From a virus: a stretch of DNA of 64,000 nt. The translations under genes and the position numbers were made by a program. The notes beneath the pieces are model-generated. The model had not been told where the DNA came from, ran no database searches, and was given only the letters and a program-made list of their open reading frames with translations. The stretch covers positions 4,640 through 68,639 of IMG/VR virus record IMGVR_UViG_3300046740_000391, one strand, 5' to 3'. This document shows, one piece after another, positions 12,050-58,498 of this stretch. Position 1 is the stretch's first letter; every line of letters begins with the position of its first letter.

Positions 12050-12481
12050 ATGTCGAATGCAGGCACCAAGCTTCACGGCAAGAACGGTGCCATCTATCTC
12101 TACGCGAAGAAGGGCGGGGCGGGCACCCTCAAGGTTGCCGCGAAGGCCGAATGGACCCTGAACCTCGGTCGTGACTACGTCGATGCCACCACCTTCGGTG
12201 ACACCAACAAGACGTACCTCACGGGCCTCAAGGACATCCAGGGCACCTACGCCGGTCTGCTCGACGTGTCGGGCGACGAGCTGGTGAACACCGCCAGCTC
12301 GGATGCGATCGCGATCTACCTGTACGCGGACGACCGCACCTCGCAGGAGATCCTGATCGCCTACGGCACCGGGTTCATCGATGCGTCGATCAACGCGTCG
12401 AACACGGACGCAATCCGCACCACCGGAAACTTCCGAGCGGCTGCTTCGTGGACCGTCTTCTCGAACGGCTCGCTGCCGTGA
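12050..12481 (+). CDS. Major tail tube protein
   Basis: HGKNGAIY...EWTL...DYVDATTFGDTNKTYLTGLKD; strong RBS and codon bias; position. Confidence 0.85.
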   Translation: MSNAGTKLHGKNGAIYLYAKKGGAGTLKVAAKAEWTLNLGRDYVDATTFGDTNKTYLTGLKDIQGTYAGLLDVSGDELVNTASSDAIAIYLYADDRTSQEILIAYGTGFIDASINASNTDAIRTTGNFRAAASWTVFSNGSLP

Positions 12482-13497: not shown

Positions 13498-16400
13498 ATG
13501 GCGCAGGAAATCGGCGCAATCGAGATCGGCGTTGGCGTCAATGTCAGCAAGCTCACAGCTGAGCTGCAGGCTGTTCAGAAGTCCGTCGACAACGCCAAGT
13601 TCAAAGAACGTGAGATCACCGTCCGCGTCAAGTTGCAGTCGCCAACTGACGCCGCTATTAAGCGTGTCCAGGAACGGGTTGTCGCGGCTCTGAACAAGGC
13701 GGGCAAGGGGGGTGAGGTCACGCTCACCCCCACGCTCGTCGTGTCCGACATCACGGCCGACAAGTTCATCTCGAACCTCCAGCACAAGATCGGCGAGAAG
13801 GAAGTCGCCGTTCCGATCGTTGCCGAGATCAACGAGACCGCGATCCGGACCCAGATCCGAGAAGCCATCGGAACGGTCGACATCGGGCTCACCTGGCACT
13901 GGGAGGGCGACGCGCCCCCAGGTGGTGCTGGTCCCGGTGGGCATGGCAGTGGGCCTGGTCCCACCGGTGGCAACAAGGGTGGCGGTGGTGGTGGTGGGAC
14001 CGGTGGCGGCAGCGCTCCCCACACGGGCGGAGGCGGCGCTGGTGCGGGTTCCAAGGCTGGTGCCAAGAGCGCATTCGCGGCATCGACCAGGATCTGGACC
14101 GAGGCCGAGAAGAAGGCGTGGCGCGAGGAATATTCCTGGGACGACTACCAGTCAGCCGAGGCTGCAGGCCTCACGCCTCCGTACACGATCGATGAGTTCA
14201 AGGACATCGTCGCCAAGCGCGGCTCAAAGATCCACCAGGCCGCGAGCCAGGGCAGCTCCGCGCCGCCGCCCGTTAGGCAGACGGCGCCGCGTGGTGCGAA
14301 GGGCAGGTTCGTCAAGGCGCCGCCTGTTCAGCAGGCGCCAGCAACCGGCGCTCCGGCTGAGGCCACCGCCGCCGGATCATTCGCAGGATCTGCCAAGGTT
14401 GAGACAGCGGCCACCGGCGGTGTGTTCGGCGCGGCGCGGAAGCTGCCGCTGGCGGACTCGCAGCGGCCCACACACGCTCCGGTCACTCGGCCGACCTCGG
14501 ACCCCACGATCGAGCGTGCGGCCTATCGGCTGTTGAACAGCGTGCCCGGCGGTCTGGAGGACCTGCTCAAGCTGGGCGGCGTCATCAAGAGCGGCGGCCT
14601 CAGCTTCAAGAAGCGGTCGGTCCTGGGCAAGGCGCCCCAGGAGCAGCAGGACCAGATCGTCAAGCTGTTCCAGCAGTATCAGGCGCGAGAGGGAACGGCT
14701 GAGGACACCCCTGATATCGGGCCTCGCCGCACTTCTACGGAGCCTCCGCGCAAGCTCGCGGATACGCCGCTGGGGATCTCCAAGGAAGAGCACGACCTCA
14801 ACAACTTCCTCAAGGCGTTGATGTCGCACAACGTCGCCAGTCGGAAGTCCCAGCGCTATCGCGAGTCCGGATCGGTCAAGGCCTTCAAGGCTGAGGTCGC
14901 CCGCCTGGGCGGCGGCGATTCGGGCTTCCTGGAGAAGGTGCTGGGCCCGGCCACCGGGCTGAAGCCGAACATCGGGACAAACCCGCACGGCATCCCCACG
15001 TTGCTGCCGTCTGGGTATCACCAGGAACACGCAGGCGACCCGGCTTACGGGTTGTATCCGTCGCTGCGCGATGCCATGACCTATATGGAGGACGGGCAAA
15101 CCGACGTCGCCCGTACCATCGCGCGCCACCACCTGGCCTCAGCCGCTACGACCGATCCGAAGCTCTTTGCCCGGCTGCTGTCGATCAAGAGGATGCGCGA
15201 GACGGACGTCAAGACCGGCGAAGACATCGCGCCGGATCCTCAAAGCGAGGCGTACGCCTCCGCGATGCAGGCGATCTTCGGCGAAGCCAACATCGCCGAG
15301 GCGCCTCGGCGCGAGCAGCGGGAAAAGATCGAGCGCACGGAGGCCGTCCAGCAGCGCAGCACGCGGCTGGAACCTATCGAACATGCGGCCCGCGAGGCCG
15401 AGATCAAGGCCAAGGAGAGGAGCGGCGGTCGGACTGGGTCCTCGCGCGGCGATCTCACTGAGGATCTGGACAAGGAAGGCCAGCGGAGGCTCCGCGCCGA
15501 GGAGAAGCGGCTCACACACAGAGTTTCACGGCGCGAACATCTGCAGGGCCTGGTCGGGAGGATCGCCAAGAAGCAGGCGCACCCGTTCGGCGAGATCAGC
15601 ATCATCCCCGCCCAGCGAGACAAGTTCGGGCAACTGCCCCCGTTTTCCAAGCGTGCCGAGGGGGGACCTCTTCCCTGGGATAAGCACCGACAGATCGAAC
15701 AACAGATCATCGACTTCGAGAAGTACCGAAAATACAACGACAGTAAGTACGGAAAAGGATTTACCGATGAGGCAATCCAGAAGCGTCGGGCCCAGCAGGA
15801 GCTGCTGAAGAGGGGACGCGCCGAAGGCGGCGAGCTGCGCCACACCGGCCTCCTGGGTCGGGCGGGCAACTCCGTCACCATGGTCGGTGAGCGTGGGCCG
15901 GAGCTGCTGGTGCAGGGACAGAACGGCGATGGTGAGGTCGTCCCGACCCACAAGATGAGTTCGTTCTGGAACCGAATGAAGCACGCCGCGGGCGGCATTG
16001 CCTTCCACGGCCCGGGTGGCCGCTATCAGGCTCAGGGCAGTGCTGCTGGGGCAGCTGTTCAGGCTGGGCTCGCGTCATCTCTGGCTGGGGCGATCCAGCG
16101 CGTCTTCGTGGTCAACTGGCCGCATGGCGGCGGCTTCGGGGCAGGCCAGGGGGCAGCCCAGGGGGCACCCGCGAGCGCAACAGCGGGCCAGGCGTTCACC
16201 GCCGCCCAGGCGGCTTCGCTGGGCCAATCGGCGCGCGCTGGTCTCAATCAGGCCGCAGCTTCGAAGAAGACCAAGCCCGAGGCGGATGTTCCGCTGACCC
16301 CGCTTCAGGCTGCGCAGCAGGCCGCCCGAACCCAGGATCTGGTCACAGCCGAACGCCTGAAGCAGAAGGGTCTCGCGGCTCAGATCCAGGCGTCCATCAA

Positions 16401-19101
16401 GGAAGCTCCGACCCGCGGTACGCCAACCAGCGTCGGCGAGATCTCGGCCGTCAGTCTCGGTGGCCTGCGAAACGTGATCGGTCGTCGGCGGCTCGCCGAT
16501 GAGGCGACCCAGCGCTCGTCAGCAGCCCTGAACTTGTACTCCAAGGCCCAGGAGAAGCTGGGCATCCTGGTCGAGAAGAGCACCAAGGCTCAGGATCCCA
16601 AGAAGATCGCCGAGTTCACCCAGCGGATCACCGAGCAGCACGAGGCTGTCGACTTTCTGGAAAAGCGGTACGAGAAGCTCTCGGGTGAGGCAGCCGAACT
16701 CGGTAAGAATGTCATCAGCGGTGCCGACAAGCTGAAGATCTTCGGTGCGAACACACTCGGTGTGATCACCGGTACGGTCCTATATTCCGCCGCCCTGGGG
16801 GCTGCTCAGGCTGGTATCACCGCCATGGGCGCAGCTCTCGGCCCCGTTGTCGAGCGGCTGGGTGGGTTCCAGAACGTTTCGGCCAAGATCACCGACAGCC
16901 TGGCTGATCAGACCCGGGCATCGGGGGGCAATACCAAGGCCACGATCGCGGCAGCCGAAGCTCAGACCGGTCTCTCTGCGGCCACGGCTGCTCAGATCTC
17001 TCCGGCATTGGAGCTGCGAGCCTCGACTGAGGCGGGTAACAAAGCACTCGCCGAGCAGATCGATCTGATCCATACGGCTCAGGCTGTTCAGAGCCAGAAC
17101 AAGGGGTTGCCTGGCGGTACGGACAAGGGTCTCTTTGCCACCACTGGTGGTCAATTCGGGACCGATTTTGGTGGTGTGGCGTCCACCTCCGAGCTGATCA
17201 CCAACGAATTGAACACGCTGCCCAATGCGGCGGAGCGAGCAGCTCCGCCTCCGGAACGGGCCGCCGGATCCGTCACTCTCGGAGGCAAGAGCGGAGTCAC
17301 GATTCCGAACGCCGGGGCTGTTGGCCATAACCCGGCGCTCGACGACTTCAACAAGGCCCTGAATAACGGAACCGATCTTCTCGAAGCCTTCAATGCGGAC
17401 GCGCAGAAGGGCGGCGAGTCCGTTCTGAAGCTGTCCGAGGTCTCTCAGGACCAGGCGAATGCGTCGGCGGCTATCGCTGCGCAGTCACCGGCGCTTCAGG
17501 GATTCGCCAAGACGCTGCGTGAGCGTTCGCTCGCTGTCACGGGTGCGGCGAAGCCAGAGGATTTCGCTCGGTTCCTGCAGTCGGTCAACCTGGGTTCCCA
17601 GACCCCCTCCGCGCAACTTCTCATCAATCAGGCGAGTTCACGGCAAATCCCGAATGCCGTTGCCGGGATCAACGCTGAAGAGCAGCAGATCACCCTTCCG
17701 ACTCAGAGCGCACAGCGGGCGCTGGACTTCCTGTCCAACCGTCCGCTGCCGTTCGGTGCTGGCATCGTGCCGGTGGGCAAGGGCGTCGAGGGTGAGCCTG
17801 CGATCGGGCCCGGTGGACCGAGTTCGATCGGCAAGTTCAAGGGTGTCGATCCGGCTGCTGCCCAGTCGTTCAACCAGTACAAGGACGTCGCCACCAGCGC
17901 CCTGAACGCGGTTATCGCGAAGGCCAAGGAGGGCGAGCAGGCACTTACCGAACTCGGCGTTCCTCCCGAGCTTGTAACCGAGATGACCAAACTCGGGAAG
18001 GAGGCCGCCGGGATCCAGCTGGGGGTGGCTGATCGCCAGGCCAAGCTGGAGGCGTCAGAGTACAGCCACGAGCTGTTCATCCTCAATCGGAACCTGGCCG
18101 ATGCTGAGGCCCTGACCGGCAAGCGTGTCGGTCGGGAGGGCGAGCTGGGTCGCCTGCAGCGCGAGAACTTCGACCTGGGCAAGAAGCAGCAGGCGCTGCA
18201 GTTCGAGTCCCAGGCGCTGTCGCTCGCGTTGAGCCAGAAGCAGATCAACTTCCAGCGGGCGCTGGCTGGCTTCCAGGCGCCGGGCGAGACCGGCCAGGAG
18301 CGAGCCGCGAGGATTGCGGAAGCCAAGGTCGAGGCTGACTACGCCCAGAAGCAGCTGAACATCCAGAAGCAGCTGTTCGCGTTGGGCAAGACCGGCTTCA
18401 AGGTCAGCGTGCGCCTGTTCGACGTCGAGGCTCAACGCCAGGTTCAGGATCTGAAGTTTGCGCTCGCGGACCTGGGCGCTCAGCACAAGCTCTCGCTCGA
18501 CATGAAGTCAGCCGACCAGGCGTTGGCGGCCATCCGCGCTCGCGAGGGCCAGGTGGCCACCGGCATCAGCAACGCGATCGACAAGTCGAACAAGTTCGCC
18601 TCGGCCCGGATCGCCCAGGCGGTCGACATCGCCAATCAGACCGGTGAGGCGTTCAGCACGATCCTGACGCAGACCGGCGTGACCTGGACCAAGTTCATCA
18701 AGCAGGGCACCACCGCGGCCAATGCCGTCATCAATGCCCTCACACCGCGTCCACAGGGTGAGCACAGCGCAGGCACAACGCAGTCCGGCAGCCAAAGCAG
18801 CGGTATCACCCACAACGGTGCGAACGCGCCGGGCTACTTCGGCACTGTCAGCTCCGCCACGTCGATGATCGTTGGCGAGGCTGGTACCGAGACCATCGCG
18901 GTTCTGCGCAACCCGCGCATCCACTCCCTCCAGAGCCCGACCGGCGGGGGTGGCGGGGGTGGCGCCACGATCGTGATCGACGTCCACGACAACAACATCT
19001 CGGGCGACAAGGACGAGGAGCGCATCGTCGCTCGCATCAGTCGGGCCGTGGAGCAGTCCATGAACCGCAAGGGCGCACTGCTCAGTCTGCGGACGGTATA
19101 G
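13498..19101 (+). CDS. Tape measure protein (atypical, 1867 aa)
   Basis: Follows the chaperone; Ala/Gly/Gln-rich helical sequence; VGERGPE and VGEAGTE motifs. Confidence 0.85.
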   Translation: MAQEIGAIEIGVGVNVSKLTAELQAVQKSVDNAKFKEREITVRVKLQSPTDAAIKRVQERVVAALNKAGKGGEVTLTPTLVVSDITADKFISNLQHKIGEKEVAVPIVAEINETAIRTQIREAIGTVDIGLTWHWEGDAPPGGAGPGGHGSGPGPTGGNKGGGGGGGTGGGSAPHTGGGGAGAGSKAGAKSAFAASTRIWTEAEKKAWREEYSWDDYQSAEAAGLTPPYTIDEFKDIVAKRGSKIHQAASQGSSAPPPVRQTAPRGAKGRFVKAPPVQQAPATGAPAEATAAGSFAGSAKVETAATGGVFGAARKLPLADSQRPTHAPVTRPTSDPTIERAAYRLLNSVPGGLEDLLKLGGVIKSGGLSFKKRSVLGKAPQEQQDQIVKLFQQYQAREGTAEDTPDIGPRRTSTEPPRKLADTPLGISKEEHDLNNFLKALMSHNVASRKSQRYRESGSVKAFKAEVARLGGGDSGFLEKVLGPATGLKPNIGTNPHGIPTLLPSGYHQEHAGDPAYGLYPSLRDAMTYMEDGQTDVARTIARHHLASAATTDPKLFARLLSIKRMRETDVKTGEDIAPDPQSEAYASAMQAIFGEANIAEAPRREQREKIERTEAVQQRSTRLEPIEHAAREAEIKAKERSGGRTGSSRGDLTEDLDKEGQRRLRAEEKRLTHRVSRREHLQGLVGRIAKKQAHPFGEISIIPAQRDKFGQLPPFSKRAEGGPLPWDKHRQIEQQIIDFEKYRKYNDSKYGKGFTDEAIQKRRAQQELLKRGRAEGGELRHTGLLGRAGNSVTMVGERGPELLVQGQNGDGEVVPTHKMSSFWNRMKHAAGGIAFHGPGGRYQAQGSAAGAAVQAGLASSLAGAIQRVFVVNWPHGGGFGAGQGAAQGAPASATAGQAFTAAQAASLGQSARAGLNQAAASKKTKPEADVPLTPLQAAQQAARTQDLVTAERLKQKGLAAQIQASIKEAPTRGTPTSVGEISAVSLGGLRNVIGRRRLADEATQRSSAALNLYSKAQEKLGILVEKSTKAQDPKKIAEFTQRITEQHEAVDFLEKRYEKLSGEAAELGKNVISGADKLKIFGANTLGVITGTVLYSAALGAAQAGITAMGAALGPVVERLGGFQNVSAKITDSLADQTRASGGNTKATIAAAEAQTGLSAATAAQISPALELRASTEAGNKALAEQIDLIHTAQAVQSQNKGLPGGTDKGLFATTGGQFGTDFGGVASTSELITNELNTLPNAAERAAPPPERAAGSVTLGGKSGVTIPNAGAVGHNPALDDFNKALNNGTDLLEAFNADAQKGGESVLKLSEVSQDQANASAAIAAQSPALQGFAKTLRERSLAVTGAAKPEDFARFLQSVNLGSQTPSAQLLINQASSRQIPNAVAGINAEEQQITLPTQSAQRALDFLSNRPLPFGAGIVPVGKGVEGEPAIGPGGPSSIGKFKGVDPAAAQSFNQYKDVATSALNAVIAKAKEGEQALTELGVPPELVTEMTKLGKEAAGIQLGVADRQAKLEASEYSHELFILNRNLADAEALTGKRVGREGELGRLQRENFDLGKKQQALQFESQALSLALSQKQINFQRALAGFQAPGETGQERAARIAEAKVEADYAQKQLNIQKQLFALGKTGFKVSVRLFDVEAQRQVQDLKFALADLGAQHKLSLDMKSADQALAAIRAREGQVATGISNAIDKSNKFASARIAQAVDIANQTGEAFSTILTQTGVTWTKFIKQGTTAANAVINALTPRPQGEHSAGTTQSGSQSSGITHNGANAPGYFGTVSSATSMIVGEAGTETIAVLRNPRIHSLQSPTGGGGGGGATIVIDVHDNNISGDKDEERIVARISRAVEQSMNRKGALLSLRTV

Positions 19102-41637: not shown

Positions 41638-41894
41638 GCCATCTCCACCGTGTAGGCGGTGAGTGGACGGTTGGGCCTTCCGTCAGTCCGGCGTGGCACC
41701 ACCGTCGATTGACGCTGCCAGTATTCGAGGGCGGTCTTGACGTCGTCAAACGCCATCGCGTCCTCCTTGTCCCCCGATGTCAACAGCATCCCCCGACCGT
41801 CCAGACCATCGACGTCGCAACTCACGACGTACTGCTCATCGAAGGTCGAGGGAACACCATCGGCACGGCCGATGATCTTGAGGTGCACCTTCAT
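41625..41894 (-). CDS. Hypothetical protein
   Basis: ATGA overlap with upstream gene; DGRPNRPLTAYTV. Confidence 0.55.
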   Translation of the reverse strand: MKVHLKIIGRADGVPSTFDEQYVVSCDVDGLDGRGMLLTSGDKEDAMAFDDVKTALEYWQRQSTVVPRRTDGRPNRPLTAYTVEMAWTD

Positions 41895-42382
41895 GCCCGA
41901 ACGATCTGGGCACGCTTGTGCCCAGCTCCTTGTGCCATTGCGGTGCTCTTGGCGGATGGGATCAGCAGCCCGTGCTCAGCAAGGCTGAACAGGCCGCCCT
42001 TGGGCCCGGTGATCAGGTGATCCTCGAACATCAACCCAGCCGCATTGGCCGCGGTCATTACGATCCGGGTCATCTCGACATCCATCGCCGTGGGCATGAT
42101 GTCGCCCGACGGATGATTGTGCGCGACCATGAACCGATCGGTGCCAGCCAGCAGCACGGCTGCGAGCAGAGCGGGGATCGGGATGTCCAGTTCATGGTAG
42201 CCGCCGACCGCGATCTCGTTCACGGTTCGGACCTGTTCGATGCTGTCGAAGGTGATGACCCACATCCGTTCCTGGGTGGAATCGGAGAGGCCCCACTGCT
42301 TCAGCAGGGTGGATAGCTCGGGAACGGACGGCTGCTCGCGTTCAACGACCAGCTCGGTTCGTACAAAGCGATCGACGTTCAT
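41891..42382 (-). CDS. RadC-like JAB domain protein
   Basis: QERMWV...AHNHPSGD..PT..D...T...G....DHLI. Confidence 0.88.
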   Translation of the reverse strand: MNVDRFVRTELVVEREQPSVPELSTLLKQWGLSDSTQERMWVITFDSIEQVRTVNEIAVGGYHELDIPIPALLAAVLLAGTDRFMVAHNHPSGDIMPTAMDVEMTRIVMTAANAAGLMFEDHLITGPKGGLFSLAEHGLLIPSAKSTAMAQGAGHKRAQIVRA

Positions 42383-47731: not shown

Positions 47732-49273
47732 CTAGGAGACGGTGGGAGCCGACTCGGGGTTGGCGCCATCGGAGACCGCGAAGAACGCCGGGGTGGTTCC
47801 CTCGGCCGAGTGGATGTCGACGATGTGGCGAGCCGGGAGCGGCAGGCTCACGGCCACGCCCTTCTCGATCGCCTCGCGGCCGACGGTCGCGATGATCTCC
47901 GCTGCCTTGACGGTCTCGGACCGCTTGTCCTCCTCGGCCGGAGTCAGCAGCCGAACGTGCTCGGCCATCTCCTCCGCTGCGAACACCAGCGCGGCATCGT
48001 CGACGAACAGCTCGTCGTCGTTGTCGTGCAAGCGGATCGCCGCCAGCTTGGACCGCTCGACCACCTCCCGGATCACGGCCGGGATGGTGCCCGCGAGCAG
48101 CTTCTTGCTCTCGGTGAGCGGCTCGCTCGCCGGGATCAGGCCACGACCGTACTGCCGAGCGAGGCGCTCGGCCGCATCCGCATCCGGCGGACCGACGTGG
48201 ATGATCGCGTCGAGGCGACCGGGCCGCAGCATCGCGGCGGTGATGTTCTCCAGCTCGTTGGTGGTCAGCACGATCATCATCGAGCTGCCCTTGGACTCGA
48301 CGCCGTCGACCACGTTCAGCACCTGGTCGATGCCGACGCTGCGATCGTCGCCGCGCATGATCCGGTCGATGTCCTCGCAGAACAGGACGACGCCAGCCTC
48401 ACGGGTGCCGTACATCCTGATCAGCTTGGCCACCTCGGCCAGCTCGAAGATCTGCTCGACCTCGACGTAGGTCCAGCCGTTGGCGACGGCCGTCTCCGCT
48501 GTGGCGCGAGCGATCATGGTCTTGCCGGTGCCGAACGGACCGGCGAGCAGGATGCCGCGCTTGAGCGGAATCCCGTGCCGGACGACGCGAGCCGTCTGCT
48601 CGATCGGCGTGAAGATGTTGGTGCGGACCGAGGCGTCGGTCTTCTCGGGCAACACCAGCTCCGGCAGGATGCTGACCGAGAGGTCGATGAACTTGGGCTC
48701 CGGCATCTCCAGCCGGACGCCGCGATCGTCGAAGAGCCGGACGCGGAACGCCTTGCCCTTGTAGATGGACTTGGTGTGGACGCGCTGCTTGACGGCCTCG
48801 ACAAGGCCGTTGACGGCCTTCTCGTACATCCGCTTGACCTTGCCGCTGATGACGAACCGGCTCACGCCGAGGTCGTCCTGCTCGATCCCGGACTGGAGGT
48901 AGCCCTCGATGTTGGGCAGCGCGAACCTGCCCCACGGAACCTGGACGGTCTCGTTGGGTCCGACCGGCACCGACAGCATCTGCGGCGGCGTGGCGCCGAA
49001 GAAGCCCGGCGTCGGGACGCCGTTGGCCCAGCCGAACTGCTCGGTGAGCACCTCGTACAAGGCGTACGCCGACTCGAACGGGAACGCGGCGTCGATCGGC
49101 GCGTGGATGCCGACCTCCTGGTTCTCGAACTCCATCCGGGCGTGGATGACCGCGTCGACACGCGGGAGGTCCATGCCCTCGGGGATGATCAGCGCGTCGC
49201 CGTGACGCTTGACCTCCACGACGTCACGGATGGACTTGGACTTGTCGCCAGCGGCCTGATTCAGGGTTGCCAT
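47732..49273 (-). CDS. AAA+ ATPase (classical clade)
   Basis: Walker A GPFGTGKT, Walker B VLFCEDID, SRH TTN...RPGRLD. Confidence 0.93.
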   Translation of the reverse strand: MATLNQAAGDKSKSIRDVVEVKRHGDALIIPEGMDLPRVDAVIHARMEFENQEVGIHAPIDAAFPFESAYALYEVLTEQFGWANGVPTPGFFGATPPQMLSVPVGPNETVQVPWGRFALPNIEGYLQSGIEQDDLGVSRFVISGKVKRMYEKAVNGLVEAVKQRVHTKSIYKGKAFRVRLFDDRGVRLEMPEPKFIDLSVSILPELVLPEKTDASVRTNIFTPIEQTARVVRHGIPLKRGILLAGPFGTGKTMIARATAETAVANGWTYVEVEQIFELAEVAKLIRMYGTREAGVVLFCEDIDRIMRGDDRSVGIDQVLNVVDGVESKGSSMMIVLTTNELENITAAMLRPGRLDAIIHVGPPDADAAERLARQYGRGLIPASEPLTESKKLLAGTIPAVIREVVERSKLAAIRLHDNDDELFVDDAALVFAAEEMAEHVRLLTPAEEDKRSETVKAAEIIATVGREAIEKGVAVSLPLPARHIVDIHSAEGTTPAFFAVSDGANPESAPTVS

Positions 49274-55417: not shown

Positions 55418-55998
55418 GCCCGGCCCGGGCTCGTCTGCAGACTTGGACCCGTGCTGCCGTCGACGTGATGGCTGACGGGCCCAGGCTCAGGACTGCCGTG
55501 GTGGCGGCGGCCGTGATGGCCGTCCCACCCGGGGTCGCTGTTCGGGCACACCGGCGTCGAGGAAAGCCATCGGAGCGGGTCTCGGTCGAACACGAGACCG
55601 CAGTTGGGGCGAGGTGGGTGGTGAGTCGGAACCTCTCGGCGATGATCCGATCCGGATCCATCGTCCAGTACACCACCGACGACGGAGAGGTCTTTCTCGA
55701 CCTTTCCGCCCGGTCCCGCCGCCTCTTGACCAAGTGAGCTATGCTGTGGATCAGGTGATGACCATCGAGGTGTCAACATGATGCCGCCGCAGGGTGGGGC
55801 TCGCGTACCGAACCCCACTCTGGTGTTCCGGCGGGCTGATGGGACACACCTCGCGACCCGGATCTGGTACCACGTTCCCCGCGTCGATGAGATCGTCGAG
55901 TTCGACGACGTCAGCTACACGGTGGACACGGTGACCTGGACCGACGACGAGGTGGTCATCATCCTGATCTAAGTTGGGTGCCACCAACAGGAGAGGGA

Positions 55999-56232
55999 AT
56001 GAAGCACATTCTGCGCATCCTCGACAAGACCGGAGACACGGCTGTCGAGTGGGCACCGACCGATGCTGCGGAGACGGCAGAGGCGGAAGCCAAGTTCAAC
56101 GAGCTGAAGGCGTCCTCGCAGTATCTGATGTTCGCGGTCCCCGCGAGCAAGCGCGAGAAGCCGACCCAGATCCGATCCTTCGAGCCCACCGCGACGGAGA
56201 TCATCGCGGTCCCCCGCTTCCAGGGTGGCTGA
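55999..56232 (+). CDS. Small protein ending in Gly-Gly (candidate ubiquitin-like / beta-grasp)
   Basis: 77 aa; C-terminus EIIAVPRFQGG-stop; AGGAGAGGG RBS. Confidence 0.6.
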   Translation: MKHILRILDKTGDTAVEWAPTDAAETAEAEAKFNELKASSQYLMFAVPASKREKPTQIRSFEPTATEIIAVPRFQGG

Positions 56233-57094
56233 GAGCGCGCTCTATTTCAACGGGACCCGGGTCGCGACAGCGACCGAATGGTCGCTGACCGCGAACCGGG
56301 ACTACGTTGATGCGACGGTTTTCGGCAATACCAACCGGACCTACCTCATTCCGATGCCGGGTTGGACGCTCACGTACACCGATGGGGATCAGGAAACCAC
56401 GATGAACCTGCCGATCGGCACCACGGCCGAGACGACTCGCAACGAAGGGACTGGTGACATCACGATCCGGTTCAACACCAGGGGCCTGTTCACCGGGGTC
56501 GTTACCACCAGCACCACCAACACGACCAACGGCGGCTTTGTCGTCCCGAATGCTGTCCAGGAGCGGATCGACACCTACGTCCGAGAAGCGGGCTTCCTCA
56601 ACGCCCGCTGGTTCACGTACCCAGCCGACGACGAGTACCGCACCGATCCGCTCTTTGGGCGCCCGTCGAAGCTCACTGAGGCTGACAAGCGGGCCACCGA
56701 GCTGCTCAAGTCCAAGCTGAACAAGAAGCAGCTGGAGATGCTGGAGACGAGCCGCAAGTTCCAGGTCAAGGGCAAGAACCTGACCTACCAGATCCACATC
56801 AACGGATCCGTGGAGACAGTCACGCCGCACGGCTGGTTCTGCGTCCACCCCATCGGTCCTGTCCGCTGGGAGCTGCCCCGGGCCGACGAGGCCATGGCGT
56901 ACAAGCTGCTGATCGAGTCGGACGAGAAGGAGTTCCTCCGGATTGCCAACTGGTCAGGCAGGGACGGAGACAACTGGATCGATCTCGGTCGCATGGACAT
57001 CTCGGGTCATGCCAAGCAGACCCGGATGAGCGAGAGGATCTACGGCGCACGGCAGACCCCTCGCCAGCGGATTGCAGCGGCGATCGGCGTTTGA
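56225..57094 (+). CDS. Protein with tail-tube-like N-terminal segment and C-terminal CxHP domain
   Basis: 19/30 identity to the tail tube segment; WFCVHP...LP..D.AM..KL.IE.DE..FLRIAN. Confidence 0.7.
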   Translation: MAESALYFNGTRVATATEWSLTANRDYVDATVFGNTNRTYLIPMPGWTLTYTDGDQETTMNLPIGTTAETTRNEGTGDITIRFNTRGLFTGVVTTSTTNTTNGGFVVPNAVQERIDTYVREAGFLNARWFTYPADDEYRTDPLFGRPSKLTEADKRATELLKSKLNKKQLEMLETSRKFQVKGKNLTYQIHINGSVETVTPHGWFCVHPIGPVRWELPRADEAMAYKLLIESDEKEFLRIANWSGRDGDNWIDLGRMDISGHAKQTRMSERIYGARQTPRQRIAAAIGV

Positions 57095-58135: not shown

Positions 58136-58498
58136 GTGAAGCACACCACAACGGTGACCGTGCCGTTCGAGGCCGGACATCAAATCGACTATCTCGATGG
58201 TTGCAAGTGGACGGGCCATGGGCATCGTTGGACGGTCACGGTTACGGTTGGGGGCACCCTTGATGCCCAGAAGGTCTATGTGGTGGACCACCACCGTCTA
58301 CTGGCAGCCGTCCGAGAAGTTGTCGACGAACTCCGAGATCACAACCTCAACGACATGCTCCCCGGAGTCCGGCCCACCCCCGAGGGTCTCGCCATCTACT
58401 TCCACGAGCGGCTCGCCCTGGGGGTCCCCCGGATCGTAGCCGTCGAAGTTGGCATGGGCGACGAGATCAAGACGAGGGTCGAATGGGATCTGCGGTGA
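58136..58498 (+). CDS. queD: QueD / 6-pyruvoyl-tetrahydropterin synthase-like protein
   Basis: FEAGH...C...HGH.W.V.V.V...DH.LND...PT.E.LA. Confidence 0.82.
   Translation: MKHTTTVTVPFEAGHQIDYLDGCKWTGHGHRWTVTVTVGGTLDAQKVYVVDHHRLLAAVREVVDELRDHNLNDMLPGVRPTPEGLAIYFHERLALGVPRIVAVEVGMGDEIKTRVEWDLR

What the first reader, a model, noticed from the sequence alone, without database searches (positions are those of the whole stretch)
56225..56347. Non-structural gene carries a conserved 30-aa copy of the phage's own tail-tube segment (possible decoy or targeting module)
Seen: residues 12-41 of 56225-57094 (RVATATEWSLTANRDYVDATVFGNTNRTYL) align without gaps to residues 28-57 of the tail tube at 12131-12220 (KVAAKAEWTLNLGRDYVDATTFGDTNKTYL), 19/30 identical. 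In RDYVDAT, 4 of 7 codons differ silently, which suggests protein-level selection rather than a recent duplication. The rest of the tube is absent, and the gene lies 44 kb from the tail module. Knowledge: tail tube proteins trigger some defences (e.g. DSR2), and an extended beta-hairpin drives tube polymerisation. Inference: the segment is a tube mimic that decoys a sensor, caps or poisons rival tails, or directs the C-terminal CxHP domain to tail tubes.
Basis: partly seen in the sequence, partly recalled or inferred. Interest (0 to 1): 0.85.

Follow-up and report, generated by a model that had tools for sequence, protein, structure and literature searches.

The report
Tail-tube loop copy on phage E2-like protein
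An uncultivated phage carries a lysine-free copy of its tail tube's ring-stacking loop on a protein that looks like a ubiquitin-conjugating enzyme and sits beside a small ubiquitin-like gene, suggesting that phages may tag tail tubes with their own ubiquitin-like protein.

Summary
Residues 12-51 of ORF 56225-57094 match residues 28-67 of the tail tube (21/40 identical, E 3e-11). Nine of the identical residues use different codons, and the frame has a coding GC3.

The segment is not a one-off. A HMMER search found 290 relatives of the C-terminal domain. Of the 147 examined, 26 carry the same hairpin (D-A-T-x-F-G-D-x-x-R-T-Y), either N- or C-terminal to the domain.

In the tube, the segment is strand beta2 plus the inter-ring "long loop". 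The tube's near-invariant Lys54 is never Lys in the copies (24 Arg, 2 Gln). The extension bearing the hairpin is a lysine desert: 0 Lys and 10 Arg in 144 residues here.

The conserved domain has an invariant Cys206 and Asp221, and its model most resembles UBC/RWD folds, though weakly (Z up to 4.7). In 10 loci it sits beside a ~77-aa protein ending in GG. The pair co-folds with ipSAE 0.83 against 0.02 for the best control, with the GG tail on the Cys loop. No E1 or JAB was found in 6 phage records.

Best reading: a phage Ubl/E2-like module whose lysine-free tube-loop copy docks it on tube protein. Binding to the tube and conjugation were not tested. The scan's only related note lies on this same window.

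The parts
56258..56377 (+). Tube-like segment, residues 12-51 of the 289-aa protein. It copies tube strand beta2 plus the long loop. Arg38 (56336-56338) stands where the tube has Lys54.
   Evidence: BLASTP 21/40 identical, E 3e-11. hhalign 43 columns, E 8.6e-13. Codon table.
56225..56656 (+). Lysine-free N-terminal extension (residues 1-144; the first Lys is residue 149). It is T/N/R-rich and predicted to be beta-rich, but at low confidence.
   Evidence: 0 Lys and 10 Arg in 144 residues. A K-free run of 148 was reached by 43 of 20,000 shuffles. pLDDT is below 50 over most of residues 1-140.
56657..57010 (+). Conserved UBC/RWD-like domain (residues 145-262) with invariant Cys206 (56840-56842) and Asp221 (56885-56887).
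   Evidence: 290 relatives at E<=1e-3. Invariant columns. pLDDT >90. VIA-align top hits are RWD, Ubc9, UEV and E2, Z up to 4.7. Predicted Ubl interface at residues 205-210 and 221-233.
56225..57094 (+). The whole gene for the E2-like protein (289 aa, GTG start). It overlaps the stop of the upstream gene by 8 nt.
   Evidence: A 99-100% identical cluster of 4 sequences.
55999..56232 (+). Gene for a 77-aa ubiquitin-like protein ending ...AVPRFQGG-stop. An alternative GTG start at 55978 would give 84 aa.
   Evidence: 69 homologues, 57 of which end in GG. It lies beside the E2-like gene in 10 loci. Co-fold ipSAE 0.83 against 0.02 for the best control.
12050..12481 (+). Tail tube protein gene (143 aa). 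The matching segment is 12131-12250 (residues 28-67). The Lys54 codon is 12209-12211.
   Evidence: PHROG major tail protein, E 1.8e-5. Foldseek matches to solved tube proteins. The model has strands 31-38 and 64-70 with a low-confidence loop at 41-60 between them. 147 relatives in IMG/VR.

Best explanation
The segment is a lysine-free copy of the tail tube's beta2 strand and inter-ring 'long loop'. It is a portable module on the variable, lysine-depleted extension of a protein whose conserved domain is a UBC/E2-like fold with an invariant cysteine. That protein forms a two-gene unit with a ~77-aa ubiquitin-like protein ending in Gly-Gly, encoded immediately upstream and translationally coupled to it.

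Proposed mechanism:
1. The Ubl is activated, presumably by a host E1-type enzyme, because no E1 is found in the phage.
2. The Ubl is carried on Cys206.
3. The long-loop copy docks the enzyme on the face of tube protein that normally receives the long loop of the next ring.
4. The Ubl is then transferred to lysines of the tube or of something bound to it.
5. The docking module and its whole extension lack lysine, so they cannot be modified themselves.

Shown here: the similarity, its conservation and portability, the K-to-R replacement, the lysine desert, the gene pairing, and the predicted Ubl/Cys-loop interface.

Inferred: thioester formation, the source of activation, docking on the tube, and the target.
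For: 1. Similarity and selection. E 3e-11, with 9 synonymous codon differences among 21 identical residues.

2. Conservation. 26 of 147 examined relatives have [IV][DE][AVT]T.FGD..[RQ]T[YF] outside the domain, 15 N-terminal and 11 C-terminal. It is the most frequent motif outside the domain. 25 of the 26 lie in one 42-row group of the domain tree (support 85), where the N- and C-terminal placements are intermixed.

3. Which part of the tube. The segment spans strand 31-38 and the low-confidence loop 41-60 of the tube model. A review states that the beta2-beta3 long loop makes most of the inter-ring contact, binding the N-terminus of the tube protein in the next ring (PMC9022992, passages read).

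4. Lysine avoidance.
- The tube position is Lys in 65 of 68 motifs found in 80 loci, and in 54 against 5 IMG/VR stretches when the same DNA pattern is scanned for Lys and for Arg.
- The copies have 24 Arg, 2 Gln and 0 Lys.
- In the window, all four tube lysines of the segment are replaced.
- The sides carrying the hairpin hold 30 Lys and 286 Arg in 3,252 residues, and 16 of 26 have no Lys. Shuffling predicts 138 Lys, and 0 of 5,000 shuffles were as low as the observed 30.
- The domains themselves have 8.7% Lys.

5. E2-like domain. Cys206 and Asp221 are invariant in 147 sequences. pLDDT exceeds 90. 21 of the 50 VIA-align rows shown, including 6 of the top 7, are RWD, E2 or UEV entries.

6. Ubl partner. 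57 of 69 homologues end in GG. The Ubl gene lies beside the E2-like gene in the window and in L084, L085, L086, L087, L090, L091, L092, L093 and L155, which are high- and low-GC phages plus one probable prophage.

7. Co-fold. ipSAE 0.83 (runs 0.83, 0.84, 0.83), best of 3 controls 0.02, at least 91% contact agreement, partner pLDDT at least 89. That mark was reached by 58 of 80 solved complexes and 2 of 110 mismatched pairs. Ubl residues 71-77 touch residues 205-210, and the Ubl sheet lies on helix 224-232.
Against: - No ThiF-type E1 and no JAB was found in 6 of 6 phage records that carry the pair. Four of them are at least 96% complete. How the Ubl would be activated is therefore unexplained.
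- The fold match is weak: Z is at most 4.7, below the level the tool calls reliable, and Foldseek against PDB found nothing.
- No Pfam E2 or Ubl family matches, and there is no HPN motif.
- Profile searches against PDB sequences found no E2 or Ubl.
- The co-fold used my own alignments. A pass may reflect likeness to solved E2-Ub complexes.
- The N-terminal extension, including the hairpin, is modelled at pLDDT below 50.
- A related phage with a 79%-identical tube has an orthologue without the hairpin, so the hairpin is not needed for the module's basic role.
- 121 of 147 relatives lack the hairpin.
- Arg-type tubes exist (5 IMG/VR stretches), so the Arg could be inherited rather than selected.
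- Only one cognate tube/copy pair, the one in this window, could be examined.
- The domain tree is poorly resolved (113 columns).
Confidence: 0.4

Rival explanations
1. Non-modifiable decoy or pseudosubstrate. The host, or a competing element, has a system that recognises the tube's long loop. This could be a Bil-like Ubl conjugation system or a tube sensor such as DSR2. The lysine-free copy occupies that system, and the attached domain with its Ubl blocks or diverts it.
For: A systematic change from Lys to Arg or Gln, together with a lysine desert, is what a substrate mimic that must not be modified would show. The gene lies among early or DNA-metabolism genes and not in the tail module. Bacterial Bil systems conjugate a Ubl to phage tail proteins (bioRxiv 10.1101/2023.09.04.556158, abstract and one passage seen). 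DSR2 binds a tube protein, and a DSR2-tube complex is among the fold matches of this tube (8ygo).
Against: This does not explain why the phage's own GG-ended Ubl is so tightly linked to the domain (10 loci), nor why the Ubl tail is modelled on the invariant Cys. The host and its defences are unknown. 121 of 147 relatives lack the hairpin.
Confidence: 0.2
2. Assembly interference or timing. The free long-loop copy caps tube protein or tube rings and blocks stacking. It could hold the phage's own tube protein unpolymerised until late, or poison the tails of co-infecting relatives. Ubl transfer to the tube would not be required.
For: In siphophage tubes the long loop makes most of the inter-ring contact (PMC9022992), so a free copy should compete for that site. 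Tail-assembly interference is a known strategy of prophages and islands (PMC11364771, abstract and passages seen).
Against: Plain competition gives no reason for the lysine desert or for Arg in place of Lys. It also does not need an invariant Cys or a Ubl partner. The phage's own tube carries the same loop, so the phage would poison itself unless it is protected.
Confidence: 0.15
3. The domain is a non-catalytic UBC/RWD-like binder of the small GG protein, or has another chemistry such as sulfur transfer. The hairpin would be an ordinary beta-hairpin building block shared by descent, with no functional link to the tube.
For: RWD and UEV domains, which are non-catalytic, score as well as the E2s. 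No E1 was found. ThiS/MoaD-type GG proteins carry sulfur (Iyer et al. 2006, PMC1779556, passages seen).
Against: The invariant Cys and Asp next to the modelled GG tail argue against a non-catalytic binder. The hairpin keeps 12-15 tube residues nearly unchanged in proteins whose domains are only 25-48% identical, and it moves between the two ends of the protein.
Confidence: 0.12
4. A neutral relic of an illegitimate recombination between the tube gene and this gene.
For: Phage genomes are mosaics. The hairpin is missing in the G003 orthologue.
Against: The hairpin is present in 26 diverged relatives. It shows synonymous divergence, a fixed non-Lys residue and a coding GC3.
Confidence: 0.03

Closest known systems
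Bacterial Ubl conjugation operons: Bil (Ubl, E1, E2, DUB), the related Bub-type operons, and CBASS Cap2/Cap3
   Same: A small protein ending in Gly-Gly sits next to a protein with a UBC-like fold and a conserved Cys. Phage tail proteins are the known targets of Bil (bioRxiv 10.1101/2023.09.04.556158, abstract and one passage seen). Bacterial E2 chains are among the fold matches (8hsb Z 2.8, 8tyz Z 2.6).
   Different: This module is encoded by phages and has only two genes. No ThiF-type E1 and no JAB deubiquitinase was found in 6 of 6 records. There is no sequence match to any Pfam E2 or Ubl family. The E2-like protein carries a long lysine-free extension, in some members with a copy of a virion protein loop. 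The name 'Bub' is recalled from memory and not from a call.
Eukaryotic E2 / RWD / UEV (UBC-like) domains
   Same: The predicted order is helix, four strands, a loop with the Cys, then a long helix. The best structural matches are RWD domains, Ubc9, E2S and UEV. The modelled Ubl sits on the helix after the Cys with its tail along the Cys loop. From memory, this resembles the closed E2~Ub arrangement.
   Different: Z is only 2.6-4.7. There is no HPN motif. An extra beta-hairpin lies at residues 242-257. No sequence similarity was detected.
Siphophage tail tube proteins (lambda gpV, SPP1 gp17.1, 80alpha gp53, monocin MttP) and their beta2-beta3 long loop
   Same: Residues 12-51 match the tube's beta2 strand and long loop with 53% identity. 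The motif RDYVDAT.FG..N.TYL is the most conserved stretch of this tube lineage.
   Different: Only 43 columns align. The beta-sandwich and the helix are missing. Every tube lysine in the segment is replaced. The gene lies outside the tail module.
Lysine deserts of ubiquitin-system proteins
   Same: A long conserved stretch without Lys but rich in Arg lies next to a Ubl-handling domain. In the papers listed (titles and abstracts seen: PMC10169902, PMC10665810), such deserts are said to prevent unwanted ubiquitylation or pupylation.
   Different: This is a phage protein, and no modification has been demonstrated. The formal length threshold for a 'desert' is not something I checked.
Lambda and T1 tail assembly protein I (Ubl domain) with the JAB/NlpC protein K
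   Same: It is a phage-encoded Ubl with a C-terminal Gly linked to tail biology (Iyer et al. 2006, PMC1779556, passages seen).
   Different: There the Ubl is part of the tail module, is fused to another domain, and is paired with peptidases rather than an E2-like Cys protein. No sequence relation to it was found here.

Membership tests
Tail tube protein (TTP fold), asked of the 289-aa ORF | A complete beta-sandwich with a flanking helix, homologous over the whole tube domain | tested here: not met
   hhalign aligns only 43 columns (tube 24-66). BLASTP similarity stops at residue 51. No Pfam or PHROG tube family matches.
Tail tube protein (TTP fold), asked of ORF 12050-12481 | The tube fold, and a position between the head-tail genes and the chaperone and tape-measure genes | tested here: met
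   Foldseek matches to monocin, R4C, 80alpha, lambda, GTA and SPP1 tubes, E 3e-5 to 8e-3. PHROG major tail protein, E 1.8e-5. An 1867-aa ORF follows at 13498-19101.
E2 / UBC-like superfamily | The UBC-like alpha/beta fold (helix, four-stranded sheet, long helix) | tested here: inconclusive
   The model has pLDDT >90 over residues 150-265. 21 of the 50 VIA-align rows shown are RWD, E2 or UEV, including 6 of the top 7, but Z is at most 4.7. Foldseek against PDB found nothing at E<=0.001.
E2 / UBC-like superfamily | A conserved catalytic Cys in the loop after the fourth strand | tested here: met
   Cys206 is invariant in 147 sequences. It lies at the end of strand 203-206, before helix 219-232.
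E2 / UBC-like superfamily | The HPN motif, and a sequence match to UQ_con or another Pfam E2 model | tested here: not met
   The Pfam scan of the protein at E<=1 returned only DUF7737 (E 0.12). UQ_con found nothing in the record at E<=10. The alignment has no conserved HPN. Some bacterial E2-like proteins also lack the His (PMC1779556, table text seen).
E2 / UBC-like superfamily | Forms a thioester with a Ubl | not testable with these tools
   Only a predicted interface is available: ipSAE 0.83 against 0.02 for the best control, with Ubl residues 71-77 on residues 205-210.
Ubiquitin-like modifier (the upstream 77-aa protein) | An exposed C-terminal Gly-Gly | tested here: met
   The protein ends ...RFQGG-stop. 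57 of 69 homologues end in GG and 4 more in GG plus 1-2 residues. 5 end in AG.
Ubiquitin-like modifier (the upstream 77-aa protein) | The beta-grasp fold | not tested
The partner pLDDT in the co-fold was at least 89. There was no Pfam hit and no PDB sequence hit to a Ubl.
Complete Bil / Bub / CBASS-type Ubl operon | An E1 (ThiF-type adenylating enzyme) and a JAB deubiquitinase encoded alongside | tested here: not met
   PF00899 and PF14464 each gave 0 of 6 phage records at E<=1. PF01398 gave 0 in the phage's own record. Only a RadC-like JAB lies at 41891-42382.

The most novel reading that the evidence does not exclude
Tailed phages encode their own minimal ubiquitin-like conjugation module, a GG-ended Ubl plus an E2-like Cys enzyme that uses a host activating enzyme. 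Its substrate-recognition arm is a lysine-free copy of a virion protein's own polymerisation loop. The phage would thereby covalently tag tail tube protein, its own or a competitor's, during assembly. The other family members, with Trp-rich lysine-poor arms, would aim the same enzyme at other targets.
Probability: 0.3. Interest if true: 0.9.

Novelty: new variant of a known kind. Interest (0 to 1): 0.8.

Why it matters
Ubiquitin-like conjugation in the phage-bacterium conflict is so far known as a bacterial weapon: Bil tags the phage tail fibre, and Cap2 primes CBASS. This finding points to a widespread phage-encoded Ubl/E2-like pair, with 290 domain relatives and 69 Ubl relatives, none of them named. 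It shows three unusual features: no E1 of its own, a lysine-desert arm, and in one subfamily a copy of the tube's ring-stacking loop with the tube's conserved lysine changed to arginine.

If the reading is right, it would give a natural example of substrate targeting by mimicry of an assembly interface. It would also add a new class of phage post-translational machinery, and it offers a directly testable target: the tube lysines.

My paper searches found no description of such a phage module. Subscription journals are mostly outside that library, and supplements were not consulted.

Tried and rejected
**Cultured phages.** There was no DNA or protein match for the ORF region and no tblastn match for the tube. 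The lineage is uncultivated.

**Word-based protein search of the ORF.** It found only the ORF's own 99-100% identical cluster of 4 sequences. No dN/dS could therefore be computed on close relatives. Codon comparison with the tube and conservation in distant relatives were used instead.

**Pfam and PHROG scans of the ORF and of 10 relatives.** No family matched. Weak DUF7737 hits (E 0.12 and 0.063) fall on the same part of the domain.

**ESM Atlas.** It returned only 'hypothetical protein' clusters with scores of 0.86-0.88, below the 0.9 level of trust.

**Fold and sequence searches of the ORF model.**
- Foldseek against PDB found nothing.
- BFVD gave three unnamed or uncharacterised phage proteins, one from Agrobacterium phage Atu_ph07. 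These were not followed up.
- Profile searches against PDB sequences for the domain family and for the Ubl family found nothing relevant.

**Context searches.**
- The single protein in viral contigs: none.
- Alignment A4 in viral contigs: 4 loci.
- A4 in metagenome contigs: 1 locus.
- A4 in genome contigs: none.
- Ubl alignment A7 in viral contigs: 4 loci.
- A10 in genome contigs: 1 locus.
- No contig of any hairpin-bearing homologue other than the window could be reached. Whether the copies match their own phage's tube is therefore untested beyond this window.

**Self-mimicry in other members.** The L086-type protein has no second match in its own 44%-complete record. The G003 orthologue has no significant match to any frame of its own genome.

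**Whole tube-like domain.** The idea that the N-terminus is a whole degenerate tube domain was rejected by hhalign, which aligned only 43 columns.

**Recent duplication.** Rejected by 58% nucleotide identity and 9 synonymous codon differences.

**Intramolecular docking.** The full-length model shows no confident docking of the hairpin on the domain (N-terminus pLDDT below 50). This says nothing either way.

**Tube-hairpin co-fold.** It was not run. The single complex job went to the Ubl/domain pair.

Pfam gave no JAB there at E<=0.01. It found only an AAA ATPase (47732-49273) and weak zinc-ribbon hits.
Full report
**1. The observation**

ORF 56225-57094 (+, GTG start, 289 aa) and the 143-aa ORF 12050-12481 are both present.
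- BLASTP aligns residues 12-51 of the first with residues 28-67 of the second without gaps: 21/40 identical, E 3e-11.
- Against all stop-to-stop frames of the window, the tube is the only hit apart from self (E 1.4e-8; the next hit has E 2.9).
- The 143-aa protein is a tail tube protein. Its model (pLDDT 77.8) matches solved tube proteins of monocin, R4C, 80alpha, lambda, GTA and SPP1. It also hits a PHROG major tail protein family.
- At the DNA level the two segments are 58% identical. Of the 21 identical residues, 9 use different synonymous codons.
- GC at codon positions 1/2/3 in the first 43 codons is 0.53/0.51/0.79, as in the rest of the gene.
- 56225 is the first possible start of the frame, and the next start lies behind the segment.

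The segment is therefore real, translated and old.

**2. Extent of the copy**

A profile of 37 tubes against a profile of 7 relatives of the ORF aligns only 43 columns (tube 24-66; probability 97.8%, E 8.6e-13). The copy is a piece of the tube and not a degenerate whole tube domain.

In the tube model the piece spans strand 31-38 and the following stretch 41-60. That stretch has no regular structure, has the lowest confidence in the monomer, and ends before strand 64-70.

A review of siphophage tails describes this element, the loop between beta2 and beta3, as the 'long loop'. It binds the N-terminus of the tube protein in the next ring and makes most of the inter-ring contact (PMC9022992, passages read).

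RDYVDAT.FG..NKTYL is also the most conserved stretch of this tube lineage.

**3. The gene's family**

Word-based searches found only a 99-100% identical cluster. The exhaustive HMMER search found 290 proteins at E<=1e-3, and the best 150 were listed. Three of those are tubes that hit only the segment. The remaining 147 were examined, and they share a ~115-residue domain (residues 145-262 here).
- In these 147 sequences Cys206 and Asp221 are invariant.
- A157, L161, Q169, Y188, P218, K227, L228, E231, E234, F237, A241 and N242 are nearly invariant.
- No Pfam or PHROG family matches.

**4. The hairpin is a portable, selected module**

The most frequent motifs outside the domain in these 147 proteins are pieces of the tube motif. 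Twenty-six proteins carry [IV][DE][AVT]T.FGD..[RQ]T[YF]:
- In 15 it lies N-terminal to the domain. In two of these (P0007, P0009), about 100 residues separate the TEWTL strand from the rest of the motif.
- In 11 it lies C-terminal to the domain.

On a tree of the domain alone, 25 of the 26 fall in one 42-row group (support 85). Within that group the N- and C-terminal placements are intermixed. For example, P0040 (N-terminal) is sister to P0119 (C-terminal) with support 92. The tree has few columns and many unresolved forks.

The hairpin is not universal. 121 of 147 relatives lack it. So does the orthologue in G003, a complete 72-kb phage whose tube is 79% identical to the window's.

**5. Lysine avoidance**

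The tube position corresponding to Lys54:
- It is Lys in 65 and Arg in 3 of the 68 motifs found in 80 tube loci. The other 12 loci did not match the search expression.
- Scanning all of IMG/VR with the same DNA pattern found 54 stretches with Lys and 5 with Arg. All lie in frames without the domain motif.
- In the 26 copies the residue is Arg 24 times, Gln twice and never Lys.

In the window all four tube lysines of the segment are replaced: K28R, K32A, K54R and K61P.

The avoidance extends over the whole extension.
- The window protein has 12 lysines, the first at residue 149. Only 43 of 20,000 shuffles give a lysine-free run that long.
- Over the 26 proteins, the side that carries the hairpin holds 30 Lys and 286 Arg in 3,252 residues. 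Sixteen sides have no Lys. Shuffling predicts 138 Lys, and 0 of 5,000 shuffles were as low as the observed 30.
- The domains have 8.7% Lys, and the long ORFs of the window have 3.2%.
- Relatives without the hairpin also have lysine-poor extensions (1.3% against 6.9% in their domains).

Caveats:
- The sequences are related.
- Arg-type tubes exist.
- Only one cognate tube/copy pair (this window) could be compared.

**6. What the domain is**

The AlphaFold model is confident over residues 150-265 (pLDDT >90). Its order is two helices, four strands (the last is 203-206 and ends in Cys206), a loop, helices 219-232 and 234-240, and a hairpin.
- Foldseek found nothing in PDB.
- The exhaustive VIA-align search gave only weak scores (best Z 4.7).
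- However, 6 of the top 7 rows and 21 of the 50 shown are RWD domains, E2 enzymes or UEV domains. They include Ubc9 (Z 4.5, rmsd 2.9 over 79 residues) and two bacterial E2 chains.
- There is no HPN motif and no sequence match to E2 models.

**7. The partner**

Both points are correct.

I tested whether the link is conserved. A homologous ~75-82-aa ORF ending in GG lies directly beside a family member in these loci:
- L084, L085 and L086 (low-GC phages; domain 31-34% identical)
- L087
- L090 (record G003)
- L091
- L092 and L093, where the gene order is reversed
- L155, in a Planctomycetaceae MAG with an integrase nearby

L083 is cut at the contig end and cannot be judged.

A profile search found 69 such small proteins. 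57 end exactly in GG, 4 in GG plus one or two residues, and 5 in AG.

Co-folding the Ubl with residues 140-289, each with its family alignment, gave:
- ipSAE 0.83, 0.84 and 0.83, against 0.02 for the best of three controls
- at least 91% agreement of contacts between runs
- partner pLDDT of at least 89

The mark was reached by 58 of 80 solved complexes and 2 of 110 mismatched pairs in the tool's calibration. That calibration holds only roughly here because my own alignments were used.

In the model, Ubl residues 71-77 touch residues 205-210 around the invariant Cys, and the Ubl sheet lies on helix 224-232. This supports binding but does not show it. It may also reflect likeness to solved E2-Ub complexes.

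**8. What is missing**
- No ThiF-type E1 and no Prok-JAB was found in any of the six phage records with the pair. Four of these are at least 96% complete.
- No JAB/MPN was found in the window's record.
- Pfam scans of 20 neighbouring ORFs gave only an AAA ATPase, a RadC-like JAB, PTPS (QueD-type) and weak hits.

Activation of the Ubl is therefore unexplained. A host E1-type enzyme is the simplest assumption. The ThiF control search hit all 14 reference genomes, which shows how common such enzymes are.

**9. Reading**

The best-supported picture is a phage Ubl/E2-like module whose variable arm must not carry lysine. In one subfamily that arm contains a copy of the tube's ring-stacking loop with the tube's conserved Lys replaced.

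A tethered copy of an assembly interface would bind the complementary face of tube protein. Whether it is tethered at the N- or the C-terminus would not matter, which agrees with the observed placements. Lysine avoidance is what one expects next to a Lys-directed transfer site (lysine-desert papers; titles and abstracts seen).

I put 0.4 on 'docks the enzyme on tube protein for Ubl transfer'. The rivals are:
- 0.2: a non-modifiable decoy or pseudosubstrate for a host system
- 0.15: capping or timing of tube assembly without Ubl transfer
- 0.12: a non-catalytic or otherwise different domain
- 0.03: a neutral relic

**10. Comparison and novelty**

The module works like a bacterial Ubl operon (Bil, CBASS Cap2), but it fails the membership features of having an E1 and a DUB and of matching E2 models by sequence. 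It is filed only as 'UBC-like, E2-like by inference'.

Four literature searches found no description of a phage-encoded Ubl/E2-like pair or of a tube-loop mimic. The library lacks most subscription journals, and supplements were closed.

Iyer et al. 2006 (PMC1779556, passages seen) describe a different phage Ubl, the lambda/T1 tail assembly protein I, which is paired with peptidases.

I rate this a new variant of a known kind, with interest 0.8.

Noticed in passing
Family proteins P0063, P0073, P0076, P0090, P0118, P0138, P0145; L084:4371-5333, L086:4332-5297, L087:5518-6138, L155:8198-8815: Family members without the tube hairpin have T/S/N-rich, lysine-poor extensions with repeated Trp motifs of the type [VT]W[GS]xW (for example VWGNWN, TWGTW, VWSIW...IWSAW...VWGYW). 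These may be a second kind of targeting arm. Their meaning is unknown.
   Followed up: partly
P0007, P0008, P0009, P0010, P0012, P0018, P0019, P0023, P0097; L083:51-335; L090:3215-4039: Nine of the 147 family proteins, plus two loci, end in a shared C-terminal motif T/F-Y/F-D/E-E/Q-T (TYDET, TFDET, TYEET). P0006 ends in HQWTET. No explanation was found.
   Followed up: no
window 12050-12481 and loci L003-L154: This tube lineage has at least 147 relatives in IMG/VR but no tblastn match (E<=1e-3) in 50,697 cultured phage records. The ORF region also has no DNA match there. The phage group appears to be entirely uncultivated.
   Followed up: partly
L084:5324-6436, L086:5288-6400, L085:3862-4545: In the low-GC phages the Ubl/E2-like pair is followed by a ~370-aa protein with a Walker-A-like GDSSSGKS motif, and preceded by a ~350-370-aa Cys-rich acidic protein. 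Neither was scanned against a family library.
   Followed up: no
window 58136-58498; 47732-49273 (-); 41891-42382 (-): Pfam hits among the neighbours: PTPS/QueD-type 6-pyruvoyl-tetrahydropterin synthase (E 1.6e-16), an AAA ATPase (E 2e-17) and a RadC-like JAB domain protein (E 7e-20).
   Followed up: partly
P0038 residues 240-262: One relative carries the FGD turn twice in a row (ITAFGDAFFDATVFGDTTRTYL), as if the hairpin had been partly duplicated.
   Followed up: no
G003 (L094, L095): In the complete 72-kb relative, the tube gene runs across the ends of the record (residues 2-106 at the end, 108-142 at the start). This fits a circularly permuted assembly.
   Followed up: no
BFVD hits A0A1P8DIP4, A0A1P8DIR1, A0A2L0UZL2 (Agrobacterium phage Atu_ph07): Three predicted viral structures match the model (E 5e-5 to 8e-3; one with rmsd 2.6 over 110 columns). 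If they are true homologues, a cultured jumbo phage may carry the domain.
   Followed up: no
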